Source: a virus (taxonomy: Duplodnaviria; Heunggongvirae; Uroviricota; Caudoviricetes). From it: 44,025 nucleotides of DNA. Both the position numbers and the translations under genes were made by a program. Location: IMG/VR virus record IMGVR_UViG_2917408641_000004. One strand, given 5' to 3'. The notes beneath the pieces are model-generated. The model ran no database searches. It was not told where the DNA came from and saw only the letters and a list, made by a program, of their open reading frames with translations. Shown piece by piece: positions 20 to 23,889 of this stretch. Positions within the stretch are counted from its first letter, which is position 1. Every line of letters begins with the position of its first letter.

Positions 20-1315
20 TTAATTTTTCATTGCTTCGTTATGGGGCATGGTTGGGGCAAACTCGCTTAACTGTGTATTTAACAAAGCTACCTGTGCATT
101 ATTGTTTTCAGACATCCATTTTCCGTATACCTGAAATACCATTTGCGCATCTGCATGGCCCATCTGGTTTGCTATAAATGCCGGGTTAGCACCAGCTGTC
201 AGCGACCAGCAGGCATAAGTATGTCTCGACTGATATGATTTTCGATGGCGGAGTCCGGCACGTTTTATCGCTGCGTCCCACATCTGCCTTATTGAGTCAA
301 CGGTAAAATGGTCACCATAATTTTTTACTCTCGCTGACACTTCAGGTTGAAAAACAAAGGTGCATTTATGTTTTTCTGTTCTGCCATACTCTCTGAGGTG
401 AACATCAATGATATGCTCTTTGCTCAGTCTCGTTAATGTCATCTGACTCCGGAGAGCGTCGATTGCTGGCTTAATAAGATGAATGACCCGATTGGTTCCC
501 GCCTGTGTTTTTGGTACCGTGAAACGGTCTTTTGCTAAATTTCTCCTGATCATCATTGTTCCATTTTTCAGATCTATGTCCTCCCATCCAAGTGCACACA
601 GCTCACCAGGGCGAACGCCAGTATAAACAGAAACACACCATAAATTTTTGGCTTGCTGATTTCTGCACGCATCGATAAGACGGATGAATTCCTCCCGCGA
701 AAGAGGATCCGGAATGGTTCTTGATTCCTTTAATGGCGAGATCCCCTTAAACGGGTTATCTGCCAGGTAACCGTTATCAACACCAAACTGGAACACGGCG
801 TTAAGATTTGTCATGTAATTATTTACAGTTACAGCCGATCTCCCTGGTTGTGTAACAATATAGTTACTTTTGGGGATCTGGTATCCAGTCAGTAGCTCTT
901 TACGAACCTCCAGTAATTTTTCTTTATTAATCGATGAGGCAAGATTTTTTTCACCGATTATGCTCAGGATATTTTTGATGACGGCACGGTATGTGTTGAG
1001 TGATGTTTTTGCGACTTCAGTTTCTTTCAGTGCCAGAAATTTTTCAGCCAGTTCTTTTATGGTTAAATCTTGTCGGGTCTCACCAAATTTTTCCAGATTG
1101 CGTGAGGAGGGAAACTGTTTTGCATAGTCGAAAACACCAGTTTTTATTGCGTAACAAACAGAGGCGCGTAGCTCACCTGCAACGCGCCTGTTTTTTGCTG
1201 TGTCAGGAACCCCCAGGTTTTCCCTGACTCTTACGCCTTTATAAACAAACCAGATACGTAATTTCCCTCCATGGTTTTCCACGCCTGTCGGATATTTCAT
1301 TTCAACTTCTCTCAT
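20..1315 (-). CDS. int: Phage tyrosine integrase
   Basis: 431-aa ORF; C-terminal catalytic region with tyrosine-recombinase signatures (..SRHTYACWSL.., ..MGHADAQMVFQVYGKW..); located at prophage edge next to an excisionase-like gene. Confidence 0.9.
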   Translation of the reverse strand: MREVEMKYPTGVENHGGKLRIWFVYKGVRVRENLGVPDTAKNRRVAGELRASVCYAIKTGVFDYAKQFPSSRNLEKFGETRQDLTIKELAEKFLALKETEVAKTSLNTYRAVIKNILSIIGEKNLASSINKEKLLEVRKELLTGYQIPKSNYIVTQPGRSAVTVNNYMTNLNAVFQFGVDNGYLADNPFKGISPLKESRTIPDPLSREEFIRLIDACRNQQAKNLWCVSVYTGVRPGELCALGWEDIDLKNGTMMIRRNLAKDRFTVPKTQAGTNRVIHLIKPAIDALRSQMTLTRLSKEHIIDVHLREYGRTEKHKCTFVFQPEVSARVKNYGDHFTVDSIRQMWDAAIKRAGLRHRKSYQSRHTYACWSLTAGANPAFIANQMGHADAQMVFQVYGKWMSENNNAQVALLNTQLSEFAPTMPHNEAMKN

Positions 1316-1334
1316 TAGTTAGTGTGGCTTTTAG

Positions 1335-1586
1335 TCAAGTAAGATGACGTCTTGGTCTTGCTGATGCCTGGCGCTCAATCCAGCGATCAATTTCTTCCAG
1401 GTTGTAAAAGCATGGACTGTTATCCCATGGCATACCGTCATGAGCGACATGCTTATATTCCCTTCCTTCCATAAACGATTTTTCCCGGGCCTTTTTTAAC
1501 GTACCTTTTTTTATTCCTTTCAGCGCAATTAACTGCTCTTCGGATACCCATTTGCCGGGAGAGACAATCATGATTACTTCGCTCAT
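1335..1586 (-). CDS. xis: Excisionase-like protein
   Basis: 83-aa ORF directly upstream of int on the same strand; small protein with the W..EG..W pattern seen in enterobacterial prophage excisionases. Confidence 0.6.
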   Translation of the reverse strand: MSEVIMIVSPGKWVSEEQLIALKGIKKGTLKKAREKSFMEGREYKHVAHDGMPWDNSPCFYNLEEIDRWIERQASARPRRHLT

Positions 1587-1658
1587 CGATTTCTTTATCT
1601 CTTACATCAGACGAGCGCCGGTTGCAGAATACCAGTCACAACCGGCGACAGTTGAACA

Positions 1659-4130
1659 TTAAGAATCAGCCTGACTCGGGATCAGTTTTTGCCAGATAAC
1701 TGAAACGTATTTTGCCTGGTAACGGGCGTCATCAAGTGCATTATGGCGCTCACCTTCGAATGGAATAGCCGTTCTGGCATCGAAGTCTATGGCTTTCCCC
1801 AGCTCAACGATTGTGCGTACATCGCGATCGTTGTAGTAACGCCACGGGCAGGGGATCCCCTGCCGTTCGTATGAACGGCGCAAAATCGTGTTGTCGAAGT
1901 TGGCTCCATTTCCCCAGACCTGAACAAAAAATTCACCGGAGTTTTCGTCGATAAATTCCCGCAATTGTAACAGTGCATCATCTAACGGGATTTCATCGGT
2001 CATAATGGCAGATTGCGCTTCGCGTGATTGCTTAAGCCACCATTTAATGGTGTCCCGATCAATGACTCCGCCAGCAGTTTCCAGATCGATAGTCTTACTA
2101 AATTCGGGTCCCATATCTCCGGTTTGCGGATCGAAAAATATTGCACCTATTGAGATGATCGGGGCATCAGGATTTTTTCCCATGGTTTCAAGGTCGATCA
2201 TTAGATGGTCACACGTCCTGCTGGTGGATGTGATTTCGTGATGACCGTTCACCTTAATTGAGTGATCTGCCGTCTCGCCAGTTTCATTATCGCTATTGTG
2301 ATGCTGATTGCCGCCAGTGTTCTCCTTGTGTGGATGTTCAGCGCCTTCCATTTCCTCCGGATCATCTTCCTGAACTTCAACCTGATACTCTTCATCGAAT
2401 GTTTCTTGGTATGTTGCGTCGCCCATCACCGCGCCACAATCAGGGCAGTTGCCGCCGCCGGTCTGACCGCAGGCGGTGCAGACTTTTTCCACTTCCTGTT
2501 GCGCCACTGGTTCAGGCTGTTTCGTTTCTGGCTCGTTTTGTAACGCATTTGGGCTGTTTTGTTCCGCTTTTTGGTAGTTCCGTTCCGATTCATGCTGGTT
2601 CTGGTTCACAGAATCGCGGGTCTGGATCCCCTTAACCCATTTCGGATCATTCGGGTCACTAATCCCTTCAACAAATTCACCACGTGATGCAGCAAGCAAC
2701 TTATCGGCGTCAGGCTGGCTGATATTGGCTGCCTGCATAATTTTGTTTACTTCGTCAGCGGTAACTTTTATCGGCTCTGGTTGTTCTGAATCTTCAGCGG
2801 TATCTACATTTTGCGGTAAGCCCGTGTATGTGCCATTTTTTCGGGCAAAATATTCTTCTTTTGTGATTTCAGTGGCGCCAGCAGCCAGTGCCTTATCCAG
2901 ACCAGAAAGTTTGTTTGCGCGACCGTATTTTTCTCCGTCCTTATCTGCGAAGAGGAAATAGAACGGCCCCTCACGCTCTACAGATGGTTCAGCTTCCGGC
3001 GCGGTTTCATTTTTTGGGATATCAGATACCTCAGTTTCCACTGCATCAGTTTGTGTTTCTGATGACTGGAGAACATCAACAGTGCCTAGGTCTGTTTCTT
3101 CATTCTCAAACACGCCCTTTGTCGTCAGGTATTCGCAGATATATTTGTTCAGTGCTACGGGATCTTTGTGAATGTCGATCGGACGCTCACGGACAAGGCC
3201 AAAAATAGTTTGGCGGTCGTAGCGAAGGGCATCAGGCTGTTTGCGCATTGATGCCGAGATACGCTTCCAGTCTTCGCGGTCGTTGTCGATAACTTCTTTT
3301 TTTGCCCAGCGATGGATGCTGCCGTCAATGTTTCCGGCATCCACATCACCAGGCCAGAGAGCGTAGGCCAGTTCGTCATCCAGTGTTTTCCATGTCTGCT
3401 TGTATTCGCGATGAATGGCAGCAATGACCGGGCTGATTTTTCCTGTTGAATTTTCAGTGTACTGTTGATTGGCTCTGGCGCGGGCGAGATCAACAACAGA
3501 CGTGTATTTTCCGGTTTCCTTGCGTTCACCTTCGCGACGTTTTTTCCAGATGCGCATCTCTGCCTGAATTTCGGGCCATTTAGCACCAGGAATACATTTA
3601 TGCTTAACCCACCCAATGGCGTGCAACTTAAGCTCCGGATACATGGCGTTAACTTCTGGCATTTTCATCAACGCTTCAACGATATGTCCGTCGAATGTTG
3701 CCATGTCTTCCTGCAACAATTCCTGTGCGCTAATAACCATATCAACGGTGATGTTTTCACATGTGTCGAACTTAACCATGACAGCGTTCTGTACTTCAGG
3801 GGCCAGCTTGTCAAAAGTGACGTTCATCGGATCGGATTCAGTCTCAACCGGGACAAAAGAAGCAGACTCCTCATCCCAGCGGTTTTCCTGCATATATTCA
3901 GCATCCCATGAATCGAGGGCAGGGCGGGGTATGCCAGGTTTATCCTCGCAGACAATAAATTTATAAGCGCAGTCCTGAGCAGCCGGATAATGTTCCAGGA
4001 ACTGCCAGTGAAATTTTGCTCGAGCACGGCGTTCGTCGCCAGCTTCAATGGCTGTGGCTACAGCCACAGCGCCTTCTTCCCTTGTTGCCAGTTCGTCAGG
4101 AATAGCGGCGCAAATAAAGACTTTACTCAT
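1659..4130 (-). CDS. Large phage exonuclease with C-terminal DEDDh 3'-5' exonuclease domain
   Basis: 823-aa ORF; C-terminal ~190 aa carry Exo I/II/III-like motifs (MIDLETMG, WGNGANFD, HNALDDARY); central Cys4 cluster CTACGQ..CPDCG; occupies the recombination-gene position. Confidence 0.75.
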   Translation of the reverse strand: MSKVFICAAIPDELATREEGAVAVATAIEAGDERRARAKFHWQFLEHYPAAQDCAYKFIVCEDKPGIPRPALDSWDAEYMQENRWDEESASFVPVETESDPMNVTFDKLAPEVQNAVMVKFDTCENITVDMVISAQELLQEDMATFDGHIVEALMKMPEVNAMYPELKLHAIGWVKHKCIPGAKWPEIQAEMRIWKKRREGERKETGKYTSVVDLARARANQQYTENSTGKISPVIAAIHREYKQTWKTLDDELAYALWPGDVDAGNIDGSIHRWAKKEVIDNDREDWKRISASMRKQPDALRYDRQTIFGLVRERPIDIHKDPVALNKYICEYLTTKGVFENEETDLGTVDVLQSSETQTDAVETEVSDIPKNETAPEAEPSVEREGPFYFLFADKDGEKYGRANKLSGLDKALAAGATEITKEEYFARKNGTYTGLPQNVDTAEDSEQPEPIKVTADEVNKIMQAANISQPDADKLLAASRGEFVEGISDPNDPKWVKGIQTRDSVNQNQHESERNYQKAEQNSPNALQNEPETKQPEPVAQQEVEKVCTACGQTGGGNCPDCGAVMGDATYQETFDEEYQVEVQEDDPEEMEGAEHPHKENTGGNQHHNSDNETGETADHSIKVNGHHEITSTSRTCDHLMIDLETMGKNPDAPIISIGAIFFDPQTGDMGPEFSKTIDLETAGGVIDRDTIKWWLKQSREAQSAIMTDEIPLDDALLQLREFIDENSGEFFVQVWGNGANFDNTILRRSYERQGIPCPWRYYNDRDVRTIVELGKAIDFDARTAIPFEGERHNALDDARYQAKYVSVIWQKLIPSQADS

Positions 4131-4223
4131 TTTGTTTTAACCTCATGACAGATTTAAGGATGAACAAATCCCTGCCATTGCTGGCATATAAGAATGAAAC
4201 CGGATATTTATTACGGAACTGTT

Positions 4224-4415
4224 TTAAAGACCTGCCGGGATTTCGATATTATCCAGGTGAATAACTTTATCGACCGGGTAACAGTTACCGGGAATTTTCT
4301 GTTCGGTTGCTGCAGTCATACACTCCTGCATTGTCCTGTGAACACTGACTGCAATATCAACTGGCTCTCCGGAAACAAGAAAAACTGTCAGAACAAGCGC
4401 AAATGCTGAATTCAT
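4224..4415 (-). CDS. Small hypothetical protein with N-terminal signal peptide
   Basis: 63 aa from ATG at 4415 (SD AAGGA 8 nt upstream); hydrophobic N-terminus MNSAFALVLTVFLVSG; ATGA overlap with upstream gene suggests translational coupling. Confidence 0.5.
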   Translation of the reverse strand: MNSAFALVLTVFLVSGEPVDIAVSVHRTMQECMTAATEQKIPGNCYPVDKVIHLDNIEIPAGL

Positions 4416-4600
4416 TGTGCACATCCTTTTGGCATCAGACGTAAACGAGCCAGCATTGAAACAATGCATATTTTATTTAATAGCTCCCGTTCTTGTTTTC
4501 TCTTGTTAATGGCATCTTCAGTAAATACAGGGTTACTGATAGTGACACCAATTTCAAAACAACCTTCAGACGTATTAACGTTTGGTAATAACGTTTTCAT
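4412..4600 (-). CDS. Small hypothetical early protein
   Basis: 62 aa from ATG at 4600 with SD GAGGA 7 nt upstream; stop overlaps start of next gene (ATGA). Confidence 0.5.
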   Translation of the reverse strand: MKTLLPNVNTSEGCFEIGVTISNPVFTEDAINKRKQERELLNKICIVSMLARLRLMPKGCAQ

Positions 4601-5102
4601 TATCGCGTCCTCAACAATGAATTTTGTGATGCAGTGCCTGGTGCCTCCAGGTGACGTTAACCAGTTAACAATTAACGCCGGATACAGAGAATCCACCCAT
4701 AACACTGTTTTTGGTTTTAACTGTTCCGCGTGCGCTTAGCCGCATTCACCGCATCACAAAATTCACTTTAAAAACGGCGGCAGAGCAGTCACGGAGTAAA
4801 ACTGATACCGCCAAACGTCACCAGAAAATTGATAACAGAGGGCGTTGCAGCGGGGTTGTCACTTAAGCGTATGGTCAACCTGACAACTCGGTGTCCTCAA
4901 CGGGGAAGGAATAACCCCGCCATACTTACCGCCGCGCCATTTCGCGGGTTGCCACAACCGGAAGCGCACGGTCGAATTAAATTTAACGACACCGTACAGT
5001 GAGACGAACTTCGCCGTGCGCTTTCGTGTTGTGTGCCTGCTTTTAACCACGTCAGGCGAGGTGGTATCCTTCTTATCCCGAATAACCAAGAAGGAAATCT
5101 AT

Positions 5103-5303
5103 ATGACTAAAGAAGAATTTGTCTCTTATATTTTTGATAAAACGGTTGAAATGTATGCCGCTACTTACGGGTCCTGTAATCCTCTGAATAAACCAGAGGG
5201 GAAAGATGATTTCGACAAAATTTACCGCTTCTTGGAGGACCGCTATATCAAAAGGTTAGAGGACGCAGGGATCAAATCCCCAGTGAAGTCACCATTGTCC
5301 TGA
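5103..5303 (+). CDS. Small hypothetical protein
   Basis: 66 aa from ATG 5103 with SD AAGGAA; transcribed opposite to the flanking early genes. Confidence 0.45.
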   Translation: MTKEEFVSYIFDKTVEMYAATYGSCNPLNKPEGKDDFDKIYRFLEDRYIKRLEDAGIKSPVKSPLS

Positions 5304-14998: not shown

Positions 14999-15277
14999 AT
15001 GGCACGCAACGTAAAATATTACAATTCTGATAATTCGCCCGTTCTTGCCTGCACGCACGAGCGGTATTCTCACGCATTCAAGTCTGAATGGTTCCAGCAC
15101 CCTCCATGCACTGAAGAGCAGGCTGAATGGATAATTCAGTGTTACCGCAGGCGCGGATACGAGGTTAAGAAAGCCCTTAGTCTCGACTACCGTCACTGGA
15201 TAATCTCAGTCAGATTGCCTTACTCCGAACGCCCACCGCGTCCGTCCCGTACATTCCAGCAACGCATCTGGAGGTAA
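14999..15277 (+). CDS. Hypothetical phage protein
   Basis: 92 aa; SD GGAG upstream; directly precedes the DUF968-like gene. Confidence 0.45.
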   Translation: MARNVKYYNSDNSPVLACTHERYSHAFKSEWFQHPPCTEEQAEWIIQCYRRRGYEVKKALSLDYRHWIISVRLPYSERPPRPSRTFQQRIWR

Positions 15278-15278
15278 C

Positions 15279-16328
15279 GTGCGGGTATTACTTCGACCTG
15301 TTCTGGTACCGGAACTCGGGCTGGTGGTCGTTAAGCCGGGCCGTGAATCCATGCCGGTATTCCACAATACCCGGGTACTGGTGGAGCCGGAACCGAAAAG
15401 CATGCGTAATCTGCCGTCCGGGGTCGTTCCTGCCGTTCGCCAGCCGCTGGTGGAAGACAAAACATTGCTGCCGTTTTTCAGTAACGCACGGGTAATTCGT
15501 GCTGCTGGTGGTGCTGGTGCATTGTCTGACTGGCTGTTGCGCCATATTAAATCCTGCCAGTGGCCACACGGCGATTATCATCACAGCGAAACCGTTATTC
15601 ACCGTTATGGTACCGGCGCAATGGTGTTGTGCTGGCACTGCGACAACCAGCTGCGTGACCAGACATCCGAATCACTCGAGCAACTTGCTCATCAAAACCT
15701 GTCAGCATGGATGATTGACGTCATCGGTCACGCAATAAGCGGTACGCAGGAGCGTGAATTATCTCTGGCTGAATTATCCTGGTGGGCGGTCCGCAATCAG
15801 GTGGCGGACGCGCTACCGGAAGCGGTATTACGTCGCTCGCTGGGATTACCAGCGGAAAAAAACTGCTCGGTGTACCGCGAAAGCGACATCGTACCGGGAG
15901 AGCAGACCGCCACCAGCATATTGAAACAGCGCACAAAAAATCTTGCACCGTTGCCTCACGCCCACCAGCAACAAAACCCATCACAGGAAAAGACGGTGGT
16001 AAGCATCACCGTTGATCCAGAGTCTCCGGAATCTTTCATGAAGCTGCCTAAACGTCACCGTTGGGTTAAGGAGAAATACACACGCTGGGTTAAGACACAG
16101 CCGTGTGCTTGCTGCGGTATGCCAGCCGACGATCCGCATCATCTGATTGGTCACGGGCAGGGCGGAATGGGAACCAAAGCACATGATCTCTTTGTGTTGC
16201 CTTTGTGCAGAAAGCATCACGACGAGCTGCATGCGAATACCGTGGCATTTGAAGAGAAGTATGGCTCCCAGCTGGAGCTGATATTTCGTTTTATCGATCG
16301 TGCGCTGGCAATAGGCGTACTGGCGTAA
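15279..16328 (+). CDS. YdfU-like protein (DUF968) with HNH-like His/Cys motif
   Basis: 349 aa; C-terminal CACCGMPADDPHHLIGHG..H..LCRKHHDELH motif; located immediately upstream of Q as in Qin-type prophages. Confidence 0.55.
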   Translation: MRVLLRPVLVPELGLVVVKPGRESMPVFHNTRVLVEPEPKSMRNLPSGVVPAVRQPLVEDKTLLPFFSNARVIRAAGGAGALSDWLLRHIKSCQWPHGDYHHSETVIHRYGTGAMVLCWHCDNQLRDQTSESLEQLAHQNLSAWMIDVIGHAISGTQERELSLAELSWWAVRNQVADALPEAVLRRSLGLPAEKNCSVYRESDIVPGEQTATSILKQRTKNLAPLPHAHQQQNPSQEKTVVSITVDPESPESFMKLPKRHRWVKEKYTRWVKTQPCACCGMPADDPHHLIGHGQGGMGTKAHDLFVLPLCRKHHDELHANTVAFEEKYGSQLELIFRFIDRALAIGVLA

Positions 16329-16341
16329 GTGGAGAACGAGC

Positions 16342-17094
16342 ATGAACCTTGAAGCTTTACCAAAATATTACTCCCCAAAATCTCCAAAATTGAGTGATGA
16401 CGCACCGGCGACAGGCTCGGGTGGTTTAACAATAACAGATGTGATGGCTGCGCAGGGGATGGTGCAGTCGAAAGCTCCGCTTGGTTTTGCCTTATTCCTG
16501 GCAAAAGTTGGTGTTCAGGATCCTCAGTTTGCGATTGAAGGTCTGCTCAATTACGCGATGGCAATGGATAATCCGACATTGAACAAATTGAGTGAAGAAA
16601 TCCGGTTACAGATCATCCCTTACCTTGTGAATTTTGCCTTTGCTGATTATTCCAGGTCTGCGGCAAGTAAGGCTCGCTGTGAGTATTGTGCTGGTACTGG
16701 ATTTCATAATGTATTGCGCGAAGTGGTGAAACACTCCAGAAGTGGGGAATCTGTTATCAAGGAAGAGTGGGTGAAGGAACTATGTCAGCATTGCCATGGT
16801 AAGGGAGAAGTCAGCACAGCGTGCAGAGGGTGTAAGGGGAAAGGTATTGTCCTGGATGAAAAAAGAACCCAGCTTCATAGCACGCCTGTTTATAAGGTTT
16901 GTGGGCGTTGCAATGGAAACCGGTTTAGTCGTTTACCAACGACACTGGCGCGGTGTCATGTCCAGAAGCTGGTACCAGACCTGACGGATTATCAGTGGTA
17001 CAAAGGATATGCAGATGTCATTGATAAACTGGTTACAAAGTGCTGGCAGGAAGAAGCATATGCTGAGGTGCAATTAAGAAAAGTGACGAGATAA
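16342..17094 (+). CDS. Late-gene antiterminator Q
   Basis: 250 aa; multiple CxxC zinc motifs (CEYCAGTG, CQHCHGKG, CRGCKGKG, CGRCNG); located upstream of the lysis genes. Confidence 0.7.
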   Translation: MNLEALPKYYSPKSPKLSDDAPATGSGGLTITDVMAAQGMVQSKAPLGFALFLAKVGVQDPQFAIEGLLNYAMAMDNPTLNKLSEEIRLQIIPYLVNFAFADYSRSAASKARCEYCAGTGFHNVLREVVKHSRSGESVIKEEWVKELCQHCHGKGEVSTACRGCKGKGIVLDEKRTQLHSTPVYKVCGRCNGNRFSRLPTTLARCHVQKLVPDLTDYQWYKGYADVIDKLVTKCWQEEAYAEVQLRKVTR

Positions 17095-17247
17095 ATGATT
17101 TTCACCGAACGATGGCGACATAACGATTGTATTTTCTAAGGAAACGTGCAAAGAGTTTTCCAATGATGAGCCTTATATGCATACCGGTGGAAAATATCAA
17201 TAAGCCGCGCAGAGTGGTTTTTTTGTGGACATAAACTTTGTGCAGAA

Positions 17248-17285
17248 CGGTAACCATTATGGTTGCCGTGAATGCAGTTTTTTTA
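17248..17285 (+). terminator. Possible terminator downstream of Q (tR'-like)
   Basis: Hairpin CGGTAACCAT-T-ATGGTTGCCG followed by a T8 tract about 9 nt downstream. Confidence 0.3.
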
Positions 17286-18169
17286 CATTGCTGGCTTTTT
17301 TAGATTTGTGTTAGTTATTGATATTAACAAGAAGGGGAAAAGACATGCTAAAACGGCAGGATATGAAGGAAACGGTTATGCGTGAATGTTCCAGTGTGAT
17401 TAACCATATCATCTGGAGAAGCCATCCTGATGCAGGGAAGAGGTAACAGTAACGCGCATCAATCAGGCTGCAAATAAATGGCTTACGCCGGAAATCTGGC
17501 TATCGATGTATTACCGGTTTGTTACCCATGAAGAAAATTAAGGTGATAACGAAACTGATTTTATTGGTGTCTTGTCAGAGTGTTGCGATGAAACTTGTGT
17601 TGGCAGTGCAGGGAAAACAGTAGGATGAAAATTATAAATTGCTTTAAATGAGCTTGATTTTCCTCATGTTATGAGATATTTGTCTTATATTGCTGGTTAA
17701 TTATGAAAATTTTTGTAAATCTACAGCAATAAAATCCATATTAATTAAAGCACTAGATGCGTTTCTGATTTGTGCATGAAACATACATATCATAATGATT
17801 AATTGCATCTATAATTACAGATACAGCATTGTGCTGTTAAAAAACTGGAGTCCCCATGAATACATTATATGTAAGTGATTCAAATGAAAAATCTCATGAC
17901 AGGAATAAAAACAATGAGGATAGTAAGGGTAAGGATAATAAAAAAGACAACCGGAAAGAGTAAATAATCTTTCCTGCATAAAAATACTAGGGTGGAATAT
18001 GTCAGAACATCCAGATTTTGATGACCGTAAGCCTGATGATGAGCCCGTTGAGCGTCCTGATGAGGGGCAACCATTGAACCCTTTTTCACCGGATGATAAA
18101 AGAGATCCTATTATTTAGATATAGCAGAATATAGCCGTTTAAAGTAGGTTGTGTTTTGTTGCTATCCTT

Positions 18170-18197
18170 AAACCACCTCCACAGGAGGTGGTTTTTT
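18170..18197 (+). terminator. Strong rho-independent terminator
   Basis: AAACCACCTCC-ACAG-GGAGGTGGTTT stem-loop followed by TTTTTT. Confidence 0.7.
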
Positions 18198-18254
18198 ACT
18201 AATGGAACATTAATTGGCAGATGTGATTGTGTACGACTTATGGGAGGCTTAAGA

Positions 18255-18440
18255 TTATTTTCTGCCAATAATAAAACCAAGCGTTAACCCTATGCTTAGA
18301 GCAACCACCACGCTAGTCAGTGGATAATTTCTAAATTTATCTTTAACGTTTTCTTTGTCTCCCTGCAAAGCATCGTCAGCACATGATGCATATTTTTTGA
18401 CAGTATTAACTATTTCGTTTTCAGATTGATTTGAAGTCAT
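18255..18440 (-). CDS. Small membrane-anchored protein, ElaB/YqjD-like (DUF883-like)
   Basis: 61 aa from ATG 18440; hydrophilic N-terminus and C-terminal TM segment ..PLTSVVVALSIGLTLGFIIGRK, the architecture of DUF883 stress proteins. Confidence 0.45.
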   Translation of the reverse strand: MTSNQSENEIVNTVKKYASCADDALQGDKENVKDKFRNYPLTSVVVALSIGLTLGFIIGRK

Positions 18441-18893
18441 GTTTGAAGTCCTGATGTTAAGTGGCTTTTTAATTATAGCAGATATGCTTTCAATGATAGG
18501 GCGGAGAGTTGTTATTGAGGTGATACTATGACCACTCAATCAACATTACATAAAATGACGTTTACTCCTGTTTGGCACAGTAGCAGAATTTTGCTTCTGC
18601 TACTGAAGTCGCTTTAGCACTAGAATATGCAGATGGATAAAGCAGTTCAGCGTATGTACTGCGTCATGCATATCGGTCTTGCAGATATGACGAGAAGGGG
18701 AGACAAGGTGTGTGTAATGTAGAAGTCTTTAAAGTGCTGTCTGGGATAACTCTATGCTGAAGTGCAATTGATAAAAGTAACACGATAAAGGTTTTTCAAT
18801 GAAGATGGTAACCTGATGCTTGCATTTTTCAAAAAATATGGATAAAATTTTTTCAACGATGGGCTTTGTATACCCGACGTTAAGAAAAAGTAG

Positions 18894-18918
18894 AAAACCC
18901 GCTGATGAGCGGGTTTTG
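18894..18918 (-). terminator. Hairpin terminator, probably ending the cspF-like transcript
   Basis: ACCCGC-TGATGA-GCGGGT stem-loop flanked by A-run and T-run (potentially bidirectional). Confidence 0.45.
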
Positions 18919-19209
18919 TGCTTTAAATGGGGCAATGGTAATGTTGAATCTCATCCCGGGACTCATGTCTGTTAACTTATTATTTAGCTGGTGACTTGGT
19001 TATTTGCCTGATGTTTAAAATGTTTTCTTCCAGTACAATGTCCCTAAACACAATGAGTCTGCTTATTATATTATTAGCAGAGCTATTACGGCCAAAGTAC
19101 AGCATAAGCTTTTAAAGCCAATCAACCAGTCATCAAGACAGACGGGGTTATTCATAAAAACTCTCCATGTGTGATCCGATGGGGCCTGAAATTAAAGCTT
19201 TAATATAGC

Positions 19210-19422
19210 TCATGAAAGGTAAACATTGGCAGCTGAAGGGCCACGCAGACCATTTATCCGGCAAAATTCCACGCGTAATCCGGTGGTAATTTCTTCTGCA
19301 TCGCGGAGATTGAGCGCTGAAACATGAAGCTGGACATCGATACGACCATCGGATGGGGTGATAAGACCCTTGCCGCTTTTGCCGTCAAAGGTTTTGACAA
19401 TTCCTGTCATTTTACGGGACAA
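19210..19422 (-). CDS. cspF: Cold-shock-like protein, CspF/CspH subfamily
   Basis: 70-aa product [40 protein letters not shown]; divergent from cspB as in the Qin prophage; cannot exclude cspH assignment. Confidence 0.75.
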
Positions 19423-19722
19423 AAAAATTCCTTAATACTGATAACTTGGCGCACTATACACACGTTCCTGAAGAAAGCTATAGTTTTTTGATGGGGTTGA
19501 AGATGGCTGGATGTCTAAAATAAACATTGCTTCATATGTTCAACTATGCGTTAATGATTGCGTCGGTTTGAAGAACAGACGATATACGAAGTAGTTTACT
19601 AAAGCAGTTCTCATTTCAGGTGTTATTCACTTATTCCTTCTTTGAGTCTCTCCAATTAAGTACGAAGTCGTTTCTGTTATACAAGCCATTTATGCCGAAA
19701 GGCTCAAGTTAAGGAATGTAGA

Positions 19723-19938
19723 ATGTCAAATAAAATGACTGGTTTAGTAAAATGGTTTAACGCTGATAAAGGTTTTGGCTTTATTTCTCCTGTTGATGGT
19801 AGTAAAGATGTGTTTGTGCATTTTTCTGCGATTCAGAATGATAATTTTCGAACCTTATTTGAAGGTCAAAAGGTTACCTTCTCTGTAGAGAGTGGTGCTA
19901 AAGGTCCTGCAGCAGCAAATGTCATAATTACTGATTAA
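19723..19938 (+). CDS. cspB: Cold-shock protein CspB
   Basis: 71-aa product [38 protein letters not shown]..; CspA-family RNP motifs. Confidence 0.8.
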
Positions 19939-20221
19939 AATTAATAGTTTGTCTGTATACGATAACGAAGAAGGCTGATGCCTGAGTGGAGATACAGACA
20001 GAGTGGTGAATATTGGATCTCTTTAATAAATAGTAAGGAGATCCAATACATGAAACAATGACCAGCATATTTGGCAATAACTTAATCAGGAAAAGTATGC
20101 TAACCATTGTGGTGAAGTGCAGGTTTGCTGCATGAATAGTTTTACAGCAGAAGCTAACTGCTAGCATAGCAAAACAAAGTGCGTAAGTGGATGACTCCCA
20201 CAAAAAGCACCACAATATTAA

Positions 20222-20242
20222 ACCCGCTCAGGCGGGTTTTTT
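20222..20242 (+). terminator. Rho-independent terminator downstream of cspB
   Basis: CCCGC-TCAG-GCGGG hairpin followed by TTTTTTATT. Confidence 0.6.
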
Positions 20243-20301
20243 ATTGTCTGCTTTAAATATGTTATTAAAATATAAAAAATACTTGTTACGAATAAAATCA
20301 A

Positions 20302-20472
20302 TCAAGCTACAGCTTTAAGATTTGTCTGGAATACTTTGTTGCAATGAGGGCAGATCAAAAGAGCACCTTTTTGTACTCTTGAAAAACTGTGTTCTGACTC
20401 TTGGGTGCAGTTTGGGCAGGAACATTTAACGAGATAATTACGGCGTGATTTTGAGTCTTTACGTTCTGACAT
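20302..20472 (-). CDS. Small zinc-ribbon protein
   Basis: 56 aa from ATG 20472 (AGGA upstream); two CxxC pairs (CPNC..CPHC). Confidence 0.4.
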   Translation of the reverse strand: MSERKDSKSRRNYLVKCSCPNCTQESEHSFSRVQKGALLICPHCNKVFQTNLKAVA

Positions 20473-20690
20473 AGGCTTTTCCTGTATAAATGGCCGTATA
20501 CAGTACACTAAATATGAAAACATATCTCGTATTATTATTTAATATATGATTTTCTTTTAAAATAATTACCCACATTTTTAATGTGTCTGTTTTTTAGCGC
20601 CGTTGAGAACAACGTTTGCTATAAAAACTAACCCATAGACTCCGATCTTTTCAAACATATTGCACCATCTGTGTACATCGGGGTGAGGAT

Positions 20691-20906
20691 ATGAAATCAA
20701 TGGATAAGTTAACAACAGGTATCGCCTATGGCACATCGGCTGGTAATGCTGGTTTCTGGGCATTGCAGTTACTCGATAAAGTAACTCCGTCACAGTGGGC
20801 TGCAATCGGTGTGCTGGGTAGTCTGGTTTTTGGCCTGCTGACATATCTGACAAACCTTTATTTCAAGATTAAAGAAGACAGGCGTAAGGTTGCGAGAAGA
20901 GAGTAA
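20691..20906 (+). CDS. Class II holin (phage 21 S-type pinholin)
   Basis: 71 aa; dual-start MKSM motif; two TM segments; sequence ..[58 protein letters not shown] typical of S21/EssD. Confidence 0.85.
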
Positions 20907-20910
20907 TCCA

Positions 20911-21462
20911 ATGACACAAGTCTATGAACTGGTTGTGAAAGGAGTCCGCAATTTTGAGAATAAAGTGGCGGTAACTGTAGCCTTACGGGACAAAAAACGC
21001 TTTGACGGTGAAATTTTTGACCTGGACATCTCGCTGGACCGTGTTGAAGGTGCCGCGCTGGAGTTTTATGAGGCAGCAGCGAGAAGGAGCATTAGACAGT
21101 TCTTCCTGGATGTTGCTGCCGGGTTATGTGAAGGGGATGAGCAGTCGCCGGAAAAGCGCCCCATAATTTTAGAGGCGCAGAATGTGTGGATAACCTACAA
21201 AGGAAAGCTACCGGGAAGAATTACTGGTTCTCTGAAGACGCCACCGACGGCATTGCGGTCAGAAAAAGATGATATTGAATCGCCCATTGAAAAACTGGAG
21301 GGCAGCGTCGCTGATCTGAATAAAAAATTGTCGGTGCTGATTCCTTCTGAAGATGAAAAAAAACGCCGCGATGAGCAGTTTGCGGCGTTTTACGATTATT
21401 GCATTGAAGTTACTCGCAGGAATTTTGTGAAGATTTTTGAGGAGGGTAAATCTCTTCAGTAA
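20911..21462 (+). CDS. Hypothetical protein inserted between holin and endolysin (YdfR/DUF1327-like by position)
   Basis: 183 aa from ATG 20911 just after holin stop; same strand as the lysis genes. Confidence 0.5.
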   Translation: MTQVYELVVKGVRNFENKVAVTVALRDKKRFDGEIFDLDISLDRVEGAALEFYEAAARRSIRQFFLDVAAGLCEGDEQSPEKRPIILEAQNVWITYKGKLPGRITGSLKTPPTALRSEKDDIESPIEKLEGSVADLNKKLSVLIPSEDEKKRRDEQFAAFYDYCIEVTRRNFVKIFEEGKSLQ

Positions 21463-21783
21463 GCTTAATGGCAGACGCTGCAATTAATTCAGGAAGGTCC
21501 GCAAGGTCATCTGTCAGTGGATATGATGAAAAATCGGCGGCAGTTCTGTTAAGAAGCGCTTTAACTAATTCCTTTTCCTTCTCCGGCAACAAGTTGATTA
21601 GAGCTACGACTGCTTGCCTGAGTGCGATTAAATCAGCAAAAGTTTGTTTTGGTAGATTTGTGTAATCCATAGTCACCTCTGTGTTTATCAGATTGACATC
21701 CTCCTCCCGCCAGTGCCCATCACTGGCGAGGTAAGATTTAACATATCCGGGGATTTGAAGCCGATAAATCCTGATAAATATCC

Positions 21784-22811
<1,028 letters not shown>

Positions 22812-23174
22812 ATTAATATTAAATCGGATTATTTTTAGCGCTGAATGTGAAATTTAAATAAAAAGGACTCTTCCATGAGTCAAAATCCTTGAAATCTTAA
22901 GGGTAAGATAAAAGGTCATTAGACAGAATGACACGTTTTATTAATAAATAAAGCTATTGTTTCATTCGTGTGTTTTTCTTTACAAAAGTAATCCTTGCTA
23001 TGGTTGGTTAATCATGCGTTAATGGTGTTCTGGTTTGTTACAAAATTATCTGAAGCAGTCATTGTTATAATTTTATTATTTGTACCTCTTGAGATTTCCT
23101 TGTTGGTTTTTCTCTCTGATATTTTTTTTCGGACCATTCTGCCCAAGGGCTAACTTCTTCAAAAGGTAATAATG

Positions 23175-23387
23175 ATGTCTAACAAAATGACTGGTTTAGT
23201 GAAATGGTTTAACCCTGAAAAAGGTTTTGGTTTCATCACGCCGAAAGATGGTAGCAAAGATGTGTTTGTCCATTTCTCAGCTATTCAGAGCAACGATTTC
23301 AAAACGTTAACTGAGAATCAGGAAGTCGAATTTGGTATTGAGAACGGACCTAAAGGCCCCGCGGCTGTTCATGTTGTGGCACTTTGA
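23175..23387 (+). CDS. cspI: Cold-shock protein CspI
   Basis: 70-aa product [70 protein letters not shown]. Confidence 0.8.
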
Positions 23388-23614: not shown

Positions 23615-23658
23615 GCTTAGTGTCTAGTCGATGGATACTCACATATTACGGTAACATT

Positions 23659-23889
23659 ATGAAAAAAATAATAGTTTTTTTTAACTCTGAACCAGCAATG
23701 GTAGTGCCAGTGATGACCGGAGTTAACACCATCATGCGTGAATATCCAAATGGCGAAACAACACACCTCACTGTAATGGCTGCAGGGTTTCCATCTCTGA
23801 CCGGAGATCATAAAGTCATTTATGTAGCAGCGGATCGACATGTAACTTCAGAAGAAATTCTGGAAGCAGCAATGAGACTCTTGAATTGA
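23659..23889 (+). CDS. Hypothetical small protein
   Basis: 76 aa from ATG 23659; weak RBS; protein-like composition. Confidence 0.35.
   Translation: MKKIIVFFNSEPAMVVPVMTGVNTIMREYPNGETTHLTVMAAGFPSLTGDHKVIYVAADRHVTSEEILEAAMRLLN

What the first reader, a model, noticed from the sequence alone, without database searches (positions are those of the whole stretch)
17095..19200. AT-rich 2-kb island between Q and the lysis genes: small stress-type ORFs and terminators, no stx
This is the classical moron slot downstream of Q, occupied by stx and tRNA genes in Shiga-toxin phages. Here it has low coding density: a hairpin plus T-run at 17248-17285, a strong terminator at 18170-18197, a DUF883-like membrane protein gene (18255-18440, minus) and several short ORFs with plausible RBS encoding hydrophilic peptides, for example 17856-17963 (35 aa, K/N/D-rich) and 17999-18118 (39 aa, acidic and Pro-rich). 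With three csp genes nearby, the late region looks like a stress-protein cargo island.
Basis: partly seen in the sequence, partly recalled or inferred. Interest (0 to 1): 0.55.

Follow-up and report, generated by a model that had tools for sequence, protein, structure and literature searches.

The report
Recombination scar with one small moron
The AT-rich stretch after the phage's Q gene is mostly a patchwork of broken gene fragments left by an old recombination, wrapped around one real small membrane-protein gene and two unproven mini-genes, and it lies in front of the true late promoter rather than behind it, so it is largely ordinary.

Summary

The interval is a mosaic joint in a Qin-like lambdoid phage, not a coherent cargo island.
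- K-12 Qin lacks 17179-18730.
- The last 58 nt of Q plus about 84 nt downstream are duplicated (17037-17178 and 18731-18871).
- The Q-proximal late-promoter copy has decayed. The distal copy (18820-18924) keeps the full lambda-type PR'/pause-element/terminator layout, so the island probably sits upstream of the working late promoter.
- About 37% of the interval is decayed sequence: the dead leader, a ren-like pseudogene, a Rha/Bro-N 5' fragment and a Q 3' fragment.
- The 0.9-kb AT-rich core holds two convergent units that share a bidirectional terminator.
- One unit is a real gene. It encodes a 61-aa tail-anchored protein (phrog_11629) whose C-terminus resembles DUF883 below threshold. It has 34-55% identical homologues in other Enterobacteriaceae, in one lineage beside csp, ynfN and ynfU-like genes.
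- The other unit is two orphan small ORFs that look coding but are unverified.
- The verified small protein YnfS (19066-19155) was missed.

Interest is low.

The parts
16342..17094 (+). Intact antiterminator Q gene (250 aa). Q-lambda family with a DnaJ-type zinc finger.
   Evidence: PF03589 E=6e-50 and PF00684 at 35.1 bits, above the 32.7 cutoff. 96.4% nt identity to SfV Q and 90.4% to K-12 Qin ydfT. PMC9388147 names PF03589 the Q-lambda family.
17037..17178 (+). Direct repeat, copy A: the last 58 nt of Q plus about 84 nt downstream.
   Evidence: K-12 Qin positions 3001-3141 of L002 align both here and at 18731-18871. The repeat 17037-17109 / 18731-18803 is 77% identical with a spacing of 1694 bp.
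17127..17220 (+). Decayed copy of the late promoter cassette: TTGTAT-17-AAAGAG, then AATGATGAG in place of AACGATGGG, and a weak hairpin at 17202-17220.
   Evidence: Alignment A4. 15 mismatches at 50 positions that are at least 95% conserved, against 0 for copy B. The hairpin folds at only -8.5 kcal/mol, z = -1.4. The leader is 74% identical to SfV while the adjacent Q gene is 96% identical. This variant is found only in island carriers, never without copy B where the sequence extends far enough.
17241..17284 (+). Strong hairpin followed by G and U7 (terminator-like).
   Evidence: -20.1 kcal/mol, z = -3.2, 0 of 200 shuffles as stable. The sequence block is shared with SfV, Ayreon and Stx2c phages just upstream of their ren-like gene, but the structure is not conserved there.
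17345..17625 (+). ren-like (SfV orf47 / lambda ren) pseudogene, split over two frames with an in-frame stop.
   Evidence: tblastn gives lambda/DLP12 Ren at 17446-17583 (E=3e-8, with a stop) and at 17540-17614 in another frame (E=1e-3). The first 10 residues match SfV orf47. DNA hits fall on annotated 'protein ren'. A 32-bp deletion at 17466-17497 is tolerated in L016/L017.
17787..17815 (+). Promoter-like site ATATCA-17-TATAAT upstream of the small ORFs (prediction only).
   Evidence: Own scan. It lies in the 27.8% GC stretch 17626-17855, which has no supported ORF.
17856..17963 (+). Orphan small ORF, 35 aa, K/N/D-rich, with GGAG 5 nt upstream. Coding status unproven.
   Evidence: Only near-identical copies among 5.8e9 proteins. 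The variants are single non-synonymous changes and one frameshift form. No Pfam, NCBIfam or PHROG hit. Codon log-odds +0.45 per codon, above all 115 shadow ORFs.
17999..18118 (+). Orphan small ORF, 39 aa, acidic and Pro-rich. Coding status unproven.
   Evidence: Only near-identical copies, plus one frameshift variant, P0004. No family hit. Codon log-odds +0.25 per codon, above all 115 shadow ORFs.
18170..18197 (.). Bidirectional intrinsic terminator between the convergent small-ORF unit (+) and the 61-aa gene (-).
   Evidence: -17.3 kcal/mol on the + strand and -17.8 on the - strand, z about -3.8. It lies 52 nt after the 39-aa stop codon and 58 nt after the 61-aa stop codon. A 47-nt element containing it recurs at 91.5% in ECOR29 and in a Salmonella plasmid.
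18255..18440 (-). Gene X: a 61-aa tail-anchored membrane protein (phrog_11629) with a DUF883_C-like C-terminus.
   Evidence: PGAP annotates it as WP_000203370.1. phrog_11629 E=7e-46. Full-length homologues of 34-55% identity occur in Silvania, Leclercia, Atlantibacter and Enterobacter genomes and in unannotated library proteins. hhalign to the C-termini of YqjD (86% probability) and ElaB (60%). Codon log-odds +0.16.
18449..18499 (-). Expression signals of X: extended -10 TGcTATAAT (18480->18472), weak -35 CTATCA (18499->18494), SD AGGA (18452->18449) 8 nt before the ATG.
   Evidence: Sequence and own scan. The -10 hexamer (TATAAT or TATACT) and the GGA(G) SD are positionally conserved upstream of the homologues in other genera.
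18516..18710 (+). 5' fragment (about 62 codons plus the RBS) of a Rha/Bro-N-P22AR antirepressor-type gene, with stops and frameshifts.
   Evidence: 79% DNA identity to the start of the 'Rha protein' gene of PhiR26_1. tblastn E=1e-8 with two in-frame stops. The donor-type protein carries Bro-N and P22_AR_C domains.
18731..18788 (+). Remnant of the 3' end of a K-12-type Q gene (last 19 codons, with an internal stop). Start of repeat copy B.
   Evidence: 94.7% identity to the end of K-12 ydfT. tblastn reads KCCLG*LYAEVQLIKVTR.
18820..18924 (+). Intact lambda-type late cassette: PR' -35 TTGCAT (18820-25), -10 TAAAAT (18843-48), pause element AACGATGGG (18855-63), tR' hairpin (18887-18924).
   Evidence: The layout matches lambda PR', TTGACT-17-TAAATT-6-AACGATGGG. 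The block is invariant in SfV, Ayreon, Stx2c phage and K-12 Qin. The 29-mer occurs in at least 120 viral contigs and lies within 100 nt of a Q stop codon in 110 of 123 cases. Hairpin -23.9 kcal/mol, z = -7.6.
19066..19155 (-). ynfS, a 29-aa small protein verified in K-12.
   Evidence: PF23697 E=5e-23. The sequence is identical to the YnfS listed between cspF and ydfT in PMC6001520. Annotated as WP_120795389.1.

Best explanation
The interval 17095-19200 is a mosaic recombination joint in a Qin-like lambdoid phage.

**Origin (inferred).** A donor segment carried, in order: an SfV-type Q gene, its late promoter and leader, a ren-like gene, a small AT-rich cargo insert, and the start of a Rha/Bro-N gene. 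This segment was joined illegitimately to codon ~232 of the Q gene of a K-12-Qin-type phage. The join left two tandem copies of the Q-3'/PR' segment, 1.7 kb apart.

**The two promoter copies.** The upstream copy, the ren-like gene and the Rha fragment then decayed. The downstream copy kept the complete lambda-type cassette: promoter with a Q-binding spacer, the sigma-dependent pause element AACGATGGG, and terminator tR'. It is the promoter on which the intact Q protein acts in trans. Late transcription therefore starts at about 18855. In the absence of Q it ends at tR' (about 18922) as a short leader RNA of roughly 68 nt. With Q it reads through cspF, cspB and ynfU into the lysis genes.

**The AT-rich core (17626-18515).** The one functional cargo lies between Q and PR', in two convergent self-contained units that share the terminator at 18170-18197.
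- Unit (a), minus strand: an extended -10 promoter, a Shine-Dalgarno site, and a 61-aa C-tail-anchored inner-membrane protein. It is probably expressed in the lysogen independently of the phage programme, which is the usual moron logic. It plausibly acts like the ElaB/YqjD class of stress-associated tail-anchored proteins.
- Unit (b), plus strand: a possible promoter followed by two orphan hydrophilic small ORFs of 35 and 39 aa. Whether they are translated is undecided.

**Shown:** the duplication, the fragments, the conservation pattern of the promoter block, and the homologues of the 61-aa gene together with its conserved expression signals.

**Inferred:** which promoter is active, the order of events, the expression pattern, and the function of any of the small proteins.
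For: **Duplication and insertion**
- Window 15000-17178 aligns to K-12 L002 964-3141, and window 18731-21000 aligns to L002 3001-5271.
- The direct repeat is reported.
- The full island is present in only 40 of 5426 complete E. coli genomes and in two isolated phages, HannyBb and PhiR63_1.

**Fragments**
- tblastn detects the ren-like, Rha-like and Q fragments with stops or frameshifts.
- DNA hits fall on annotated ren and Rha/P22AR genes.
- A 32-bp deletion inside the ren remnant is tolerated in some carriers.

**Promoter**
- Alignment A4 shows the block TTGCAT-17-TAA(G/A)AT-6-AACGATGGG invariant in SfV, Ayreon, Stx2c phage, K-12 and copy B, but heavily mutated in copy A.
- Q is 96% identical to SfV Q, yet the copy A leader is only 74% identical.
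- Copy A has 15 mismatches at 50 conserved positions; copy B has none.
- The consensus block sits directly after Q in 110 of 123 viral contigs. The copy A variant occurs only in island carriers, and copy B lies 1.5-2 kb downstream of Q in the 12 of them where it could be checked.
- The layout is the same as lambda PR'. The cassette definition comes from PMC9388147.

**Gene X**
- Homologues.
- Conserved -10 and SD.
- PHROG match.
- hhalign to YqjD and ElaB C-termini.
- Neighbourhood with csp, ynfN and ynfU-like genes.

**Terminators:**

**Small ORFs:** codon log-odds above all 115 shadow ORFs, an RBS, a promoter-like site, and a terminator downstream.
Against: - No transcript or ribosome data were available, so promoter activity is inferred from conservation alone.
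- The 29-mer used to collect the promoter block forces 28 of the 50 'conserved' positions to be invariant. The independent support for those positions is the five-sequence alignment.
- Copy A could retain weak activity or use a non-consensus -10.
- The island core is almost invariant among carriers (1.3% or less), so purifying selection on any ORF could not be measured.
- The X-csp linkage rests on essentially one further independent lineage. L026-L029 are near-identical to each other, and the Silvania homologue has no csp neighbours.
- The similarity of X to DUF883 is below Pfam thresholds and covers only the last ~30 residues.
Confidence: 0.72

Rival explanations
1. This is a coherent stress-protein cargo island sitting in the classical slot downstream of PR'/tR'. 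Its small hydrophilic ORFs and the DUF883-like gene would be accessory stress genes expressed together with the nearby csp genes.
For: - The AT-rich composition is foreign to the phage backbone.
- X has a DUF883_C-like anchor.
- In Leclercia and Atlantibacter, X co-occurs with cspB, cspF, ynfN and ynfU-like genes.
- The small ORFs look coding by codon usage.
Against: - About 37% of the interval is decayed fragments of known phage sequences.
- The conserved PR' cassette lies at the right-hand end of the interval, so the ORFs are upstream of it.
- X is on the opposite strand to the late operon.
- The small ORFs have no homologues and no family assignment.
- Nothing links them to stress except amino-acid composition.
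Confidence: 0.15
2. Both promoter copies work. Tandem late promoters would make the whole island part of the Q-dependent late transcript, and the small + strand ORFs would be late-expressed morons.
For: - Copy A keeps TTG of the -35 element, the 17-nt spacing and a -10-like AATGAT at the pause position.
- It is followed by terminator-like hairpins at 17202-17220 and 17241-17284, as a PR' leader would be.
Against: - The -10 is AAAGAG (2 of 6 matches).
- The spacer, which holds the Q-binding element in the lambda family (PMC6266700), has 9 changes from an otherwise invariant sequence.
- GGG after the pause element is lost.
- The first hairpin is weak.
- The variant is never found without copy B where this could be checked.
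Confidence: 0.12
3. Everything between Q and copy B, including the 61-aa ORF, is non-functional debris carried along neutrally.
For: - Fragments dominate the flanks of the island.
- The few substitutions in X are mostly non-synonymous, clustering at codons 27-28.
- Frameshift variants of both small ORFs exist.
Against: - X has full-length homologues at 34-55% identity in four other genera. They share an invariant C-terminal motif and conserved -10 and SD signals.
- All three ORFs are intact in all 16 distinct island sequences.
- A clean terminator lies between the convergent units.
Confidence: 0.08
4. The convergent pair is a regulatory module. The ~375-nt + strand transcript (17822-18197) would act mainly as an RNA that overlaps or pairs with the 3' end of the X mRNA, as in 3'-overlapping type I toxin-antitoxin pairs, with X as a small membrane toxin.
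For: - The geometry is convergent with a shared terminator.
- X is a small protein with a single hydrophobic helix.
- The small ORFs are orphans.
Against: - The transcripts would overlap only within the terminator stem.
- X homologues occur without any such partner.
- X resembles non-toxic tail-anchored proteins.
- The + strand ORFs show in-frame codon bias.
Confidence: 0.05

Closest known systems
Lambda late regulatory cassette (Q gene, PR' with Q-binding element, sigma-dependent pause element AACGAT, tR', 6S leader RNA). StxS of Stx phages is the sRNA version of such a leader.
   Same: - Q belongs to PF03589, the Q-lambda family.
- Copy B has a -35, a 17-nt spacer, a -10, 6 nt, then AACGATGGG. 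This is the same layout as lambda PR'.
- A strong intrinsic terminator follows, which predicts a short constitutive leader RNA.
   Different: - The cassette is separated from its Q gene by 1.7 kb of inserted and decayed DNA, and it is preceded by a dead duplicate.
- The predicted leader is about 68 nt, against 194 nt for lambda 6S.
- No sRNA function was tested, and there is no Rfam match.
K-12 Qin cryptic prophage, ydfT(quuQ)-ynfS-cspF-cspB-ynfU-essQ region
   Same: - Window 18731-21000 is 96% identical to it.
- ydfU-Q is 91% identical.
- The order of ynfS, cspF, cspB, ynfU and the holin gene is the same.
   Different: - K-12 has a single Q-3'/PR' segment and lacks 17179-18730 entirely.
- The window version occurs in isolated phages (HannyBb, PhiR63_1), not only in a cryptic remnant.
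Phage SfV / Ayreon / mEp460 / Stx2c-phage post-Q region (Q, PR', tR', orf47 ren-like gene, DNA methylase, holin)
   Same: - The Q genes are 96% identical.
- Window 17095-17375 is collinear with SfV from the Q stop codon, through the annotated terminator, to the start of orf47.
   Different: - In the window this module has decayed: leader 74% identical, orf47/ren broken.
- The methylase is absent.
- An AT-rich insert and a Rha fragment follow instead.
Morons of lambdoid phages (independent promoter-gene-terminator units of deviant composition inserted between phage genes)
   Same: - Gene X has its own extended -10 promoter, SD and terminator.
- The unit has 34% GC in a 49% GC phage.
- It is absent from close relatives.
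   Different: - It lies between Q and PR', antisense to the phage transcription direction, not in the post-tR' slot.
- Expression was not tested.
DUF883 / ElaB-YqjD-YgaM tail-anchored, ribosome-associated stress proteins of E. coli
   Same: The C-terminal ~30 residues align end to end: P-x-T/W-x-I/V..., a G-rich helix, and a terminal basic pair (hhalign 86% probability to YqjD, 60% to ElaB).
   Different: - X is 61 aa, against about 101 aa.
- There is no match to the DUF883 N-terminal domain.
- The DUF883_C match is below the Pfam cutoff in all four family members tested.
- Ribosome binding is untested.

Membership tests
Lambda-type Q-dependent late cassette (PMC9388147) | Q protein of a recognised Q family, encoded directly upstream | tested here: met
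   PF03589 E=6e-50 for 16342-17094. However, the gene is 1.7 kb upstream of the intact promoter; only a 58-nt Q remnant abuts it.
Lambda-type Q-dependent late cassette (PMC9388147) | PR' promoter with a conserved spacer (Q-binding element), followed by the sigma-dependent pause element: copy B, 18820-18863 | tested here: met
   TTGCAT-17-TAAAAT-6-AACGATGGG. The layout is identical to lambda, and there are 0 mismatches at conserved positions. Activity was not measured.
Lambda-type Q-dependent late cassette (PMC9388147) | The same elements in copy A, 17127-17170 | tested here: not met
   TTGTAT-17-AAAGAG-6-AATGATGAG, with 15 mismatches at 50 conserved positions.
Lambda-type Q-dependent late cassette (PMC9388147) | Intrinsic terminator shortly downstream of the promoter | tested here: met
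   Copy B hairpin at 18887-18924, -23.9 kcal/mol, z = -7.6. The copy A equivalent folds at only -8.5 kcal/mol, z = -1.4.
DUF883 (ElaB/YqjD/YgaM) | Match to Pfam DUF883_C (PF19029) at or above the gathering score | tested here: not met
   12.3 bits against a cutoff of 27 for X. All 4 family members match weakly, with a best E of 0.0048.
DUF883 (ElaB/YqjD/YgaM) | DUF883 N-terminal helical domain | tested here: not met
   No hit at E<=1 in Pfam for X or its homologues. hhalign aligns only the last 28-30 residues.
DUF883 (ElaB/YqjD/YgaM) | C-terminal single transmembrane anchor ending in basic residues | tested here: met
   The sequence is ...PLTSVVVALSIGLTLGFIIGRK-COOH. L, G, F, G and R are invariant in the family. 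It aligns end to end with YqjD at 86% probability.
DUF883 (ElaB/YqjD/YgaM) | Association with stationary-phase ribosomes, or a stress phenotype | not testable with these tools
   Needs fractionation or phenotype experiments.
Moron (independent transcription unit inserted in a phage genome) | Own promoter and own terminator flanking the gene | tested here: met
   Extended -10 TGcTATAAT, conserved in position in homologues. Terminator 58 nt after the stop codon. These are sequence predictions only.
Moron (independent transcription unit inserted in a phage genome) | Deviant composition and absence from close relatives | tested here: met
   34% GC against 49% for the window. Absent from K-12 Qin, SfV and Ayreon. 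Present in 40 of 5426 E. coli genomes.
Moron (independent transcription unit inserted in a phage genome) | Expression from the repressed prophage | not testable with these tools
   Needs RNA-seq or reporter assays in a lysogen.
Stx / tRNA cargo of Stx-converting phages | stx genes and/or tRNA genes between Q and the lysis cassette | tested here: not met
   ARAGORN finds 0 tRNAs in the whole window. No annotated or similar toxin gene is present in this interval or in identical loci.
Lambda Ren / SfV orf47 family | Intact reading frame | tested here: not met
   The similarity is split over two frames with an in-frame stop and an internal deletion.
Known small proteins or sRNAs (for the 35-aa and 39-aa ORFs and the AT-rich spacer) | Match to any Pfam, NCBIfam, PHROG or Rfam family, or to non-identical proteins | tested here: not met
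   No family hits. Only near-identical copies among 5.8e9 proteins.

The most novel reading that the evidence does not exclude
The 0.9-kb AT-rich core may be a compact, horizontally moving three-microprotein module. It would consist of two intrinsically disordered hydrophilic peptides (35 and 39 aa) transcribed convergently with a 61-aa tail-anchored membrane protein. It would be expressed in lysogens from its own promoters, outside the phage early/late programme. It would work together with the Qin-type csp, ynfN and ynfU cargo, giving lysogens a stress or cold-adaptation benefit or excluding other phages. This would define a new family of prophage-borne microproteins.
Probability: 0.12. Interest if true: 0.45.

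Novelty: new member of a known kind. Interest (0 to 1): 0.25.

Why it matters
- It corrects the map of this phage group. Late transcription most likely starts 1.7 kb downstream of Q, at a conserved lambda-type PR'. Genes in 17095-18815 should therefore not be assumed to be Q-dependent late cargo.
- It is a clear example of a recombination scar, with a duplicated promoter segment and decaying gene stubs, that can pass for a cargo island. This is a useful caution for moron hunting.
- The one solid gene adds an uncharacterised family of short tail-anchored proteins (phrog_11629). In another genus this family travels with cold-shock genes, which makes it a modest lead for small-protein biology.
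- Nothing here bears on a long-standing open question.

Tried and rejected
- **Rfam, permissive E-value scan of 15000-22000.** Only the cspA thermoregulator in front of cspB was found. Nothing fell inside the interval, and the snoRNA hit is noise.
- **tRNA scan.** None found.
- **Consensus promoter/terminator scan.** The counts were not above shuffles, and it missed the best hairpins and the extended -10, so I used folding and my own scan instead.
- **Homology searches for the 35-aa and 39-aa ORFs (one search failed on length and was repeated with padding).** Only self-like hits came back. No Pfam, NCBIfam or PHROG hits either.
- **First genome-contig scan with X alone.** It found nothing. The profile-based repeat found six loci.
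- **Search for homologues of the small ORFs next to X homologues by tblastx.** None found.
- **Plasmid search of the core.** Only the 47-nt terminator element matched.
- **Selection analysis on the ORFs.** Abandoned, because the island core differs by 1.3% or less among all carriers.
- **RNAalifold on the 17241-17284 hairpin.** No covariation, and the consensus structure differs.
- **PDB sequence search with the X profile.** Nothing meaningful.
- **Literature search for pR' sequences of this Q type and for the source papers of HannyBb and PhiR63_1.** Nothing specific.
- **Idea that the two small ORFs are halves of one broken gene.** Considered and not supported, because neither half has any homologue.


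Full report
**Context.** The window is a Qin-like lambdoid (pro)phage. The genes around the finding are:
- ydfU (15279-16328)
- a 250-aa Q antiterminator (16342-17094)
- cspF (19210-19422, minus strand)
- cspB (19723-19938), preceded by a cspA-type thermoregulator leader (Rfam, 159 bits)
- ynfU (minus strand)
- a holin gene (20691-20906)
- a cspI-like gene (23172-23387)

The Q protein matches PF03589 (E=6e-50), which PMC9388147 names the Q-lambda family. It also carries a DnaJ-type zinc finger.

**Checking the observation.**
- GC is 0.371 in 17095-19200, against 0.494 for the window.
- ARAGORN finds no tRNA in the whole window.
- The hairpin at 17241-17276 followed by G and U7 folds at -20.1 kcal/mol (z = -3.2). 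The hairpin at 18170-18197 is a perfect 11-bp stem (-17.3 kcal/mol, z = -3.9).

There are four caveats.
- The low-GC tract continues to the holin gene.
- ORFs of this length are common here.
- The DUF883 label is a sub-threshold match.
- The first hairpin is not structurally conserved in relatives.

**What the interval is.** BLAST against 5,426 complete E. coli genomes finds the whole interval in only 40. About 1,800 more genomes match only its right-hand end, from 18731 onward, and there the match overlaps the 3' end of their Q gene.

Direct comparison with K-12 Qin shows that window 15000-17178 aligns to K-12 L002 964-3141 (91%). Window 18731-21000 aligns to L002 3001-5271 (96%). So about 141 bp are present twice in the window, and 17179-18730 has no K-12 counterpart. 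These 141 bp are the last 58 nt of Q plus 84 nt downstream. The repeat finder reports the same pair, 17037-17109 and 18731-18803, at 77% identity. The identical island occurs in two isolated phages, HannyBb and PhiR63_1. It also occurs in 16 IMG/VR contigs, always in the same context.

**Fragments of known genes.**
- Window 17095-17375 is collinear (~75% identity) with the SfV region from the Q stop codon, through an annotated terminator, to the start of orf47.
- Beyond that start, the sequence matches lambda/DLP12 ren. The match is split over two frames, with an in-frame stop and an internal deletion (tblastn E=3e-8 and 1e-3; DNA hits on annotated 'protein ren'). Some carriers have a further 32-bp deletion there.
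- Window 18516-18710 matches the RBS and the first ~62 codons of a Rha/Bro-N-P22AR antirepressor-type gene. It has two in-frame stops.
- Window 18731-18788 is the last 19 codons of a K-12-type Q gene, with an internal stop.
- Together with the decayed leader described below, these fragments cover about 37% of the interval. The K-12-like right end covers about 20%, and an AT-rich core (17626-18515, 34% GC) covers about 42%.

**Which late promoter is real.** I aligned the post-Q leaders of SfV, Ayreon, an Stx2c phage, K-12 Qin and the two window copies. The alignment shows a block, TTGCAT-17 nt-TAA(G/A)AT-6 nt-AACGATGGGCTTTGTAT, followed by the hairpin AACCCGC...GCGGGTTTT. The block is invariant in every sequence except window copy A.

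The lambda sequence itself reads TTGACT-17-TAAATT-tgactc-AACGATGGG. The block therefore has the lambda PR' layout. From my knowledge of the lambda system, AACGAT is the sigma-dependent pause element. In the lambda family, the Q utilization site lies partly between the -35 and -10 elements (PMC6266700).

The two window copies differ sharply.
- **Copy B:** -35 at 18820-25, -10 at 18843-48, AACGATGGG at 18855-63, hairpin at 18887-18924 (-23.9 kcal/mol, z = -7.6). It has no mismatch at conserved positions.
- **Copy A:** it reads TTGTAT-17-AAAGAG-6-AATGATGAG, with 15 mismatches at 50 conserved positions. Its equivalent hairpin folds at only -8.5 kcal/mol.

The contrast is sharp because the adjoining Q gene is 96% identical to SfV Q, while the copy A leader is only 74% identical. 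In IMG/VR, the consensus 29-mer occurs in at least 120 contigs, and it lies within 100 nt of a Q stop codon in 110 of 123 cases. The copy A 29-mer occurs in only 15 contigs. All of them are island carriers, and copy B lies 1.5-2 kb downstream of Q in the 12 where this could be checked.

One caveat applies. The 29-mer search forces those positions to be invariant. The independent evidence for them is the alignment.

I conclude, by inference from conservation, that copy B is the working PR'. It follows that most of the 'island' lies between Q and the late promoter, not in the post-tR' slot. In this phage that slot is 18925-20690, and it holds ynfS, cspF, cspB and ynfU.

**The AT-rich core.** It contains two convergent units that meet at the 18170-18197 hairpin. 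The hairpin is stable on both strands. It lies 52 nt after the 39-aa stop codon and 58 nt after the 61-aa stop codon.

*The 61-aa ORF (X) is a real gene.*
- PGAP annotates it, and it matches phrog_11629 (E=7e-46).
- An exhaustive HMMER search found full-length relatives at 36-48% identity.
- A profile-guided genome scan found six loci in Silvania, Leclercia, Atlantibacter and Enterobacter, at 34-55% identity.
- Upstream of all homologues, a -10 hexamer and a GGA(G) Shine-Dalgarno site are conserved in position. The hexamer is TGcTATAAT in the window, an extended -10, and TATACT in the others.
- The protein ends in a hydrophobic helix followed by GR(K/R).
- Pfam DUF883_C is matched only below threshold, and the DUF883 N-terminal domain is not matched at all. 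X therefore works like a tail-anchored DUF883-type protein at its C-terminus, but it is not a demonstrated family member.

In the Leclercia and Atlantibacter loci the homologue sits beside an integrase-family fragment. It also neighbours ynfN-like (61% to window 23656-23889), cspB-like, cspF-like and weakly ynfU-like genes. That is one independent instance of linkage to Qin-type cold-shock cargo. The Silvania homologue is chromosomal and has no csp neighbours.

*The two + strand small ORFs remain undecided.*
- For: both have an SD, a promoter-like ATATCA-17-TATAAT at 17787-17815 upstream, and a terminator downstream.
- For: their in-frame codon log-odds are +0.45 and +0.25 per codon. These exceed all 115 shadow ORFs of similar length and match real small genes of the window.
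- Against: neither has any homologue other than near-identical copies among 5.8 billion proteins, and neither has a family match.
- Against: the recorded variants are single non-synonymous changes and homopolymer frameshifts. The frameshifts could be sequencing errors.
- The island core varies by 1.3% or less among carriers, while its flanks differ by 5-16%. That fits recent spread and leaves no power to test for selection.
- I put the chance that each ORF is translated at roughly 0.35-0.45.

**Right-hand end.** The 29-aa ORF at 19066-19155 (minus strand) is YnfS (PF23697, E=5e-23). Its sequence is identical to the protein verified by tagging in K-12 and located between cspF and ydfT (PMC6001520).

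**Proposed history (inference).** A donor phage had the order Q(SfV-type)-PR'-tR'-ren-like-[X cargo]-Rha. It was joined illegitimately, inside Rha codon ~62, to codon ~232 of the Q gene of a K-12-Qin-type phage. With two PR' cassettes in tandem, the proximal one was free to decay, as were the ren-like gene and the Rha stub. Q stayed under selection. The arrangement later spread with little further change.

**Comparison with what is known, and verdict.** The pieces are all familiar: a lambda-type late cassette, mosaic joints, pseudogene stubs, a moron, and a verified small protein. The new items are modest.
- The dead/live promoter duplication displaces PR' from Q.
- An uncharacterised family of short tail-anchored proteins is linked in another genus to csp cargo.
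- Two orphan candidate microproteins sit in the core.

I classify this as a new member of a known kind, with low interest (0.25). The most novel reading still open is that the core is a functional three-microprotein lysogen module. I give that a probability of about 0.12.

Noticed in passing
window 16342-17094: This Q-lambda-family antiterminator carries a DnaJ-type CXXCXGXG zinc-finger domain (PF00684, 35.1 bits, above the 32.7 cutoff, residues 148-194). The zinc finger overlaps the start of the best Antiterm (PF03589) match, residues 155-242.
   Followed up: no
window 18154-18200: A 47-nt element containing the bidirectional terminator recurs at 91.5% identity in the ECOR29 chromosome and in the conjugative Salmonella plasmid NZ_MH579767.1, outside any phage context that I examined.
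   Followed up: no
window 18833-18964: There is weak ren-like protein similarity (E about 0.03, with a stop) downstream of the intact PR' copy. It runs across the tR' hairpin. It may mean that K-12 Qin also retains a very degraded ren-like stub after its late promoter.
   Followed up: no
window 21117-21773: A ~660-bp segment in the lysis cassette has no counterpart in K-12 Qin, strain 95-3322 or HannyBb, but is present in PhiR63_1. It overlaps a 190-aa ORF (20890-21462) and a minus-strand 88-aa ORF. A sub-threshold Rfam GcvB hit (21.4 bits against 42) falls at 21355-21532 on the minus strand.
   Followed up: no
window 18356-18363 (codons 27-28 of the 61-aa gene): Substitutions cluster at two adjacent codons: G/A at codon 27 and D/G/S at codon 28. 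The window's D28 is the minority allele, and every other island copy aligned has G.
   Followed up: partly
L026-L029 (Leclercia and Atlantibacter), locus positions about 1650-5300: A small islet lies next to arsBC and an integrase-family fragment. It carries homologues of the 61-aa protein, YnfN, CspB, CspF and a YnfU-like zinc-ribbon protein. It looks like a rearranged remnant of a Qin-type cargo region in other genera.
   Followed up: partly
L022 1987-2412 and L023 987-1412 (Stx2c phage, phage Ayreon): In these relatives, a 141-aa lipoprotein-like ORF and a second copy of the tR'-like hairpin sit between PR' and the ren-like gene. Duplication of leader and terminator pieces around inserts therefore recurs in this phage group.
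   Followed up: no
window 19562-20001: A full-length cspA-type thermoregulator RNA (Rfam RF01766, 159 bits) covers the cspB 5' UTR and the entire cspB coding sequence, ending about 60 nt beyond the stop codon. This is consistent with cold-regulated expression of this phage-borne csp gene.
   Followed up: no
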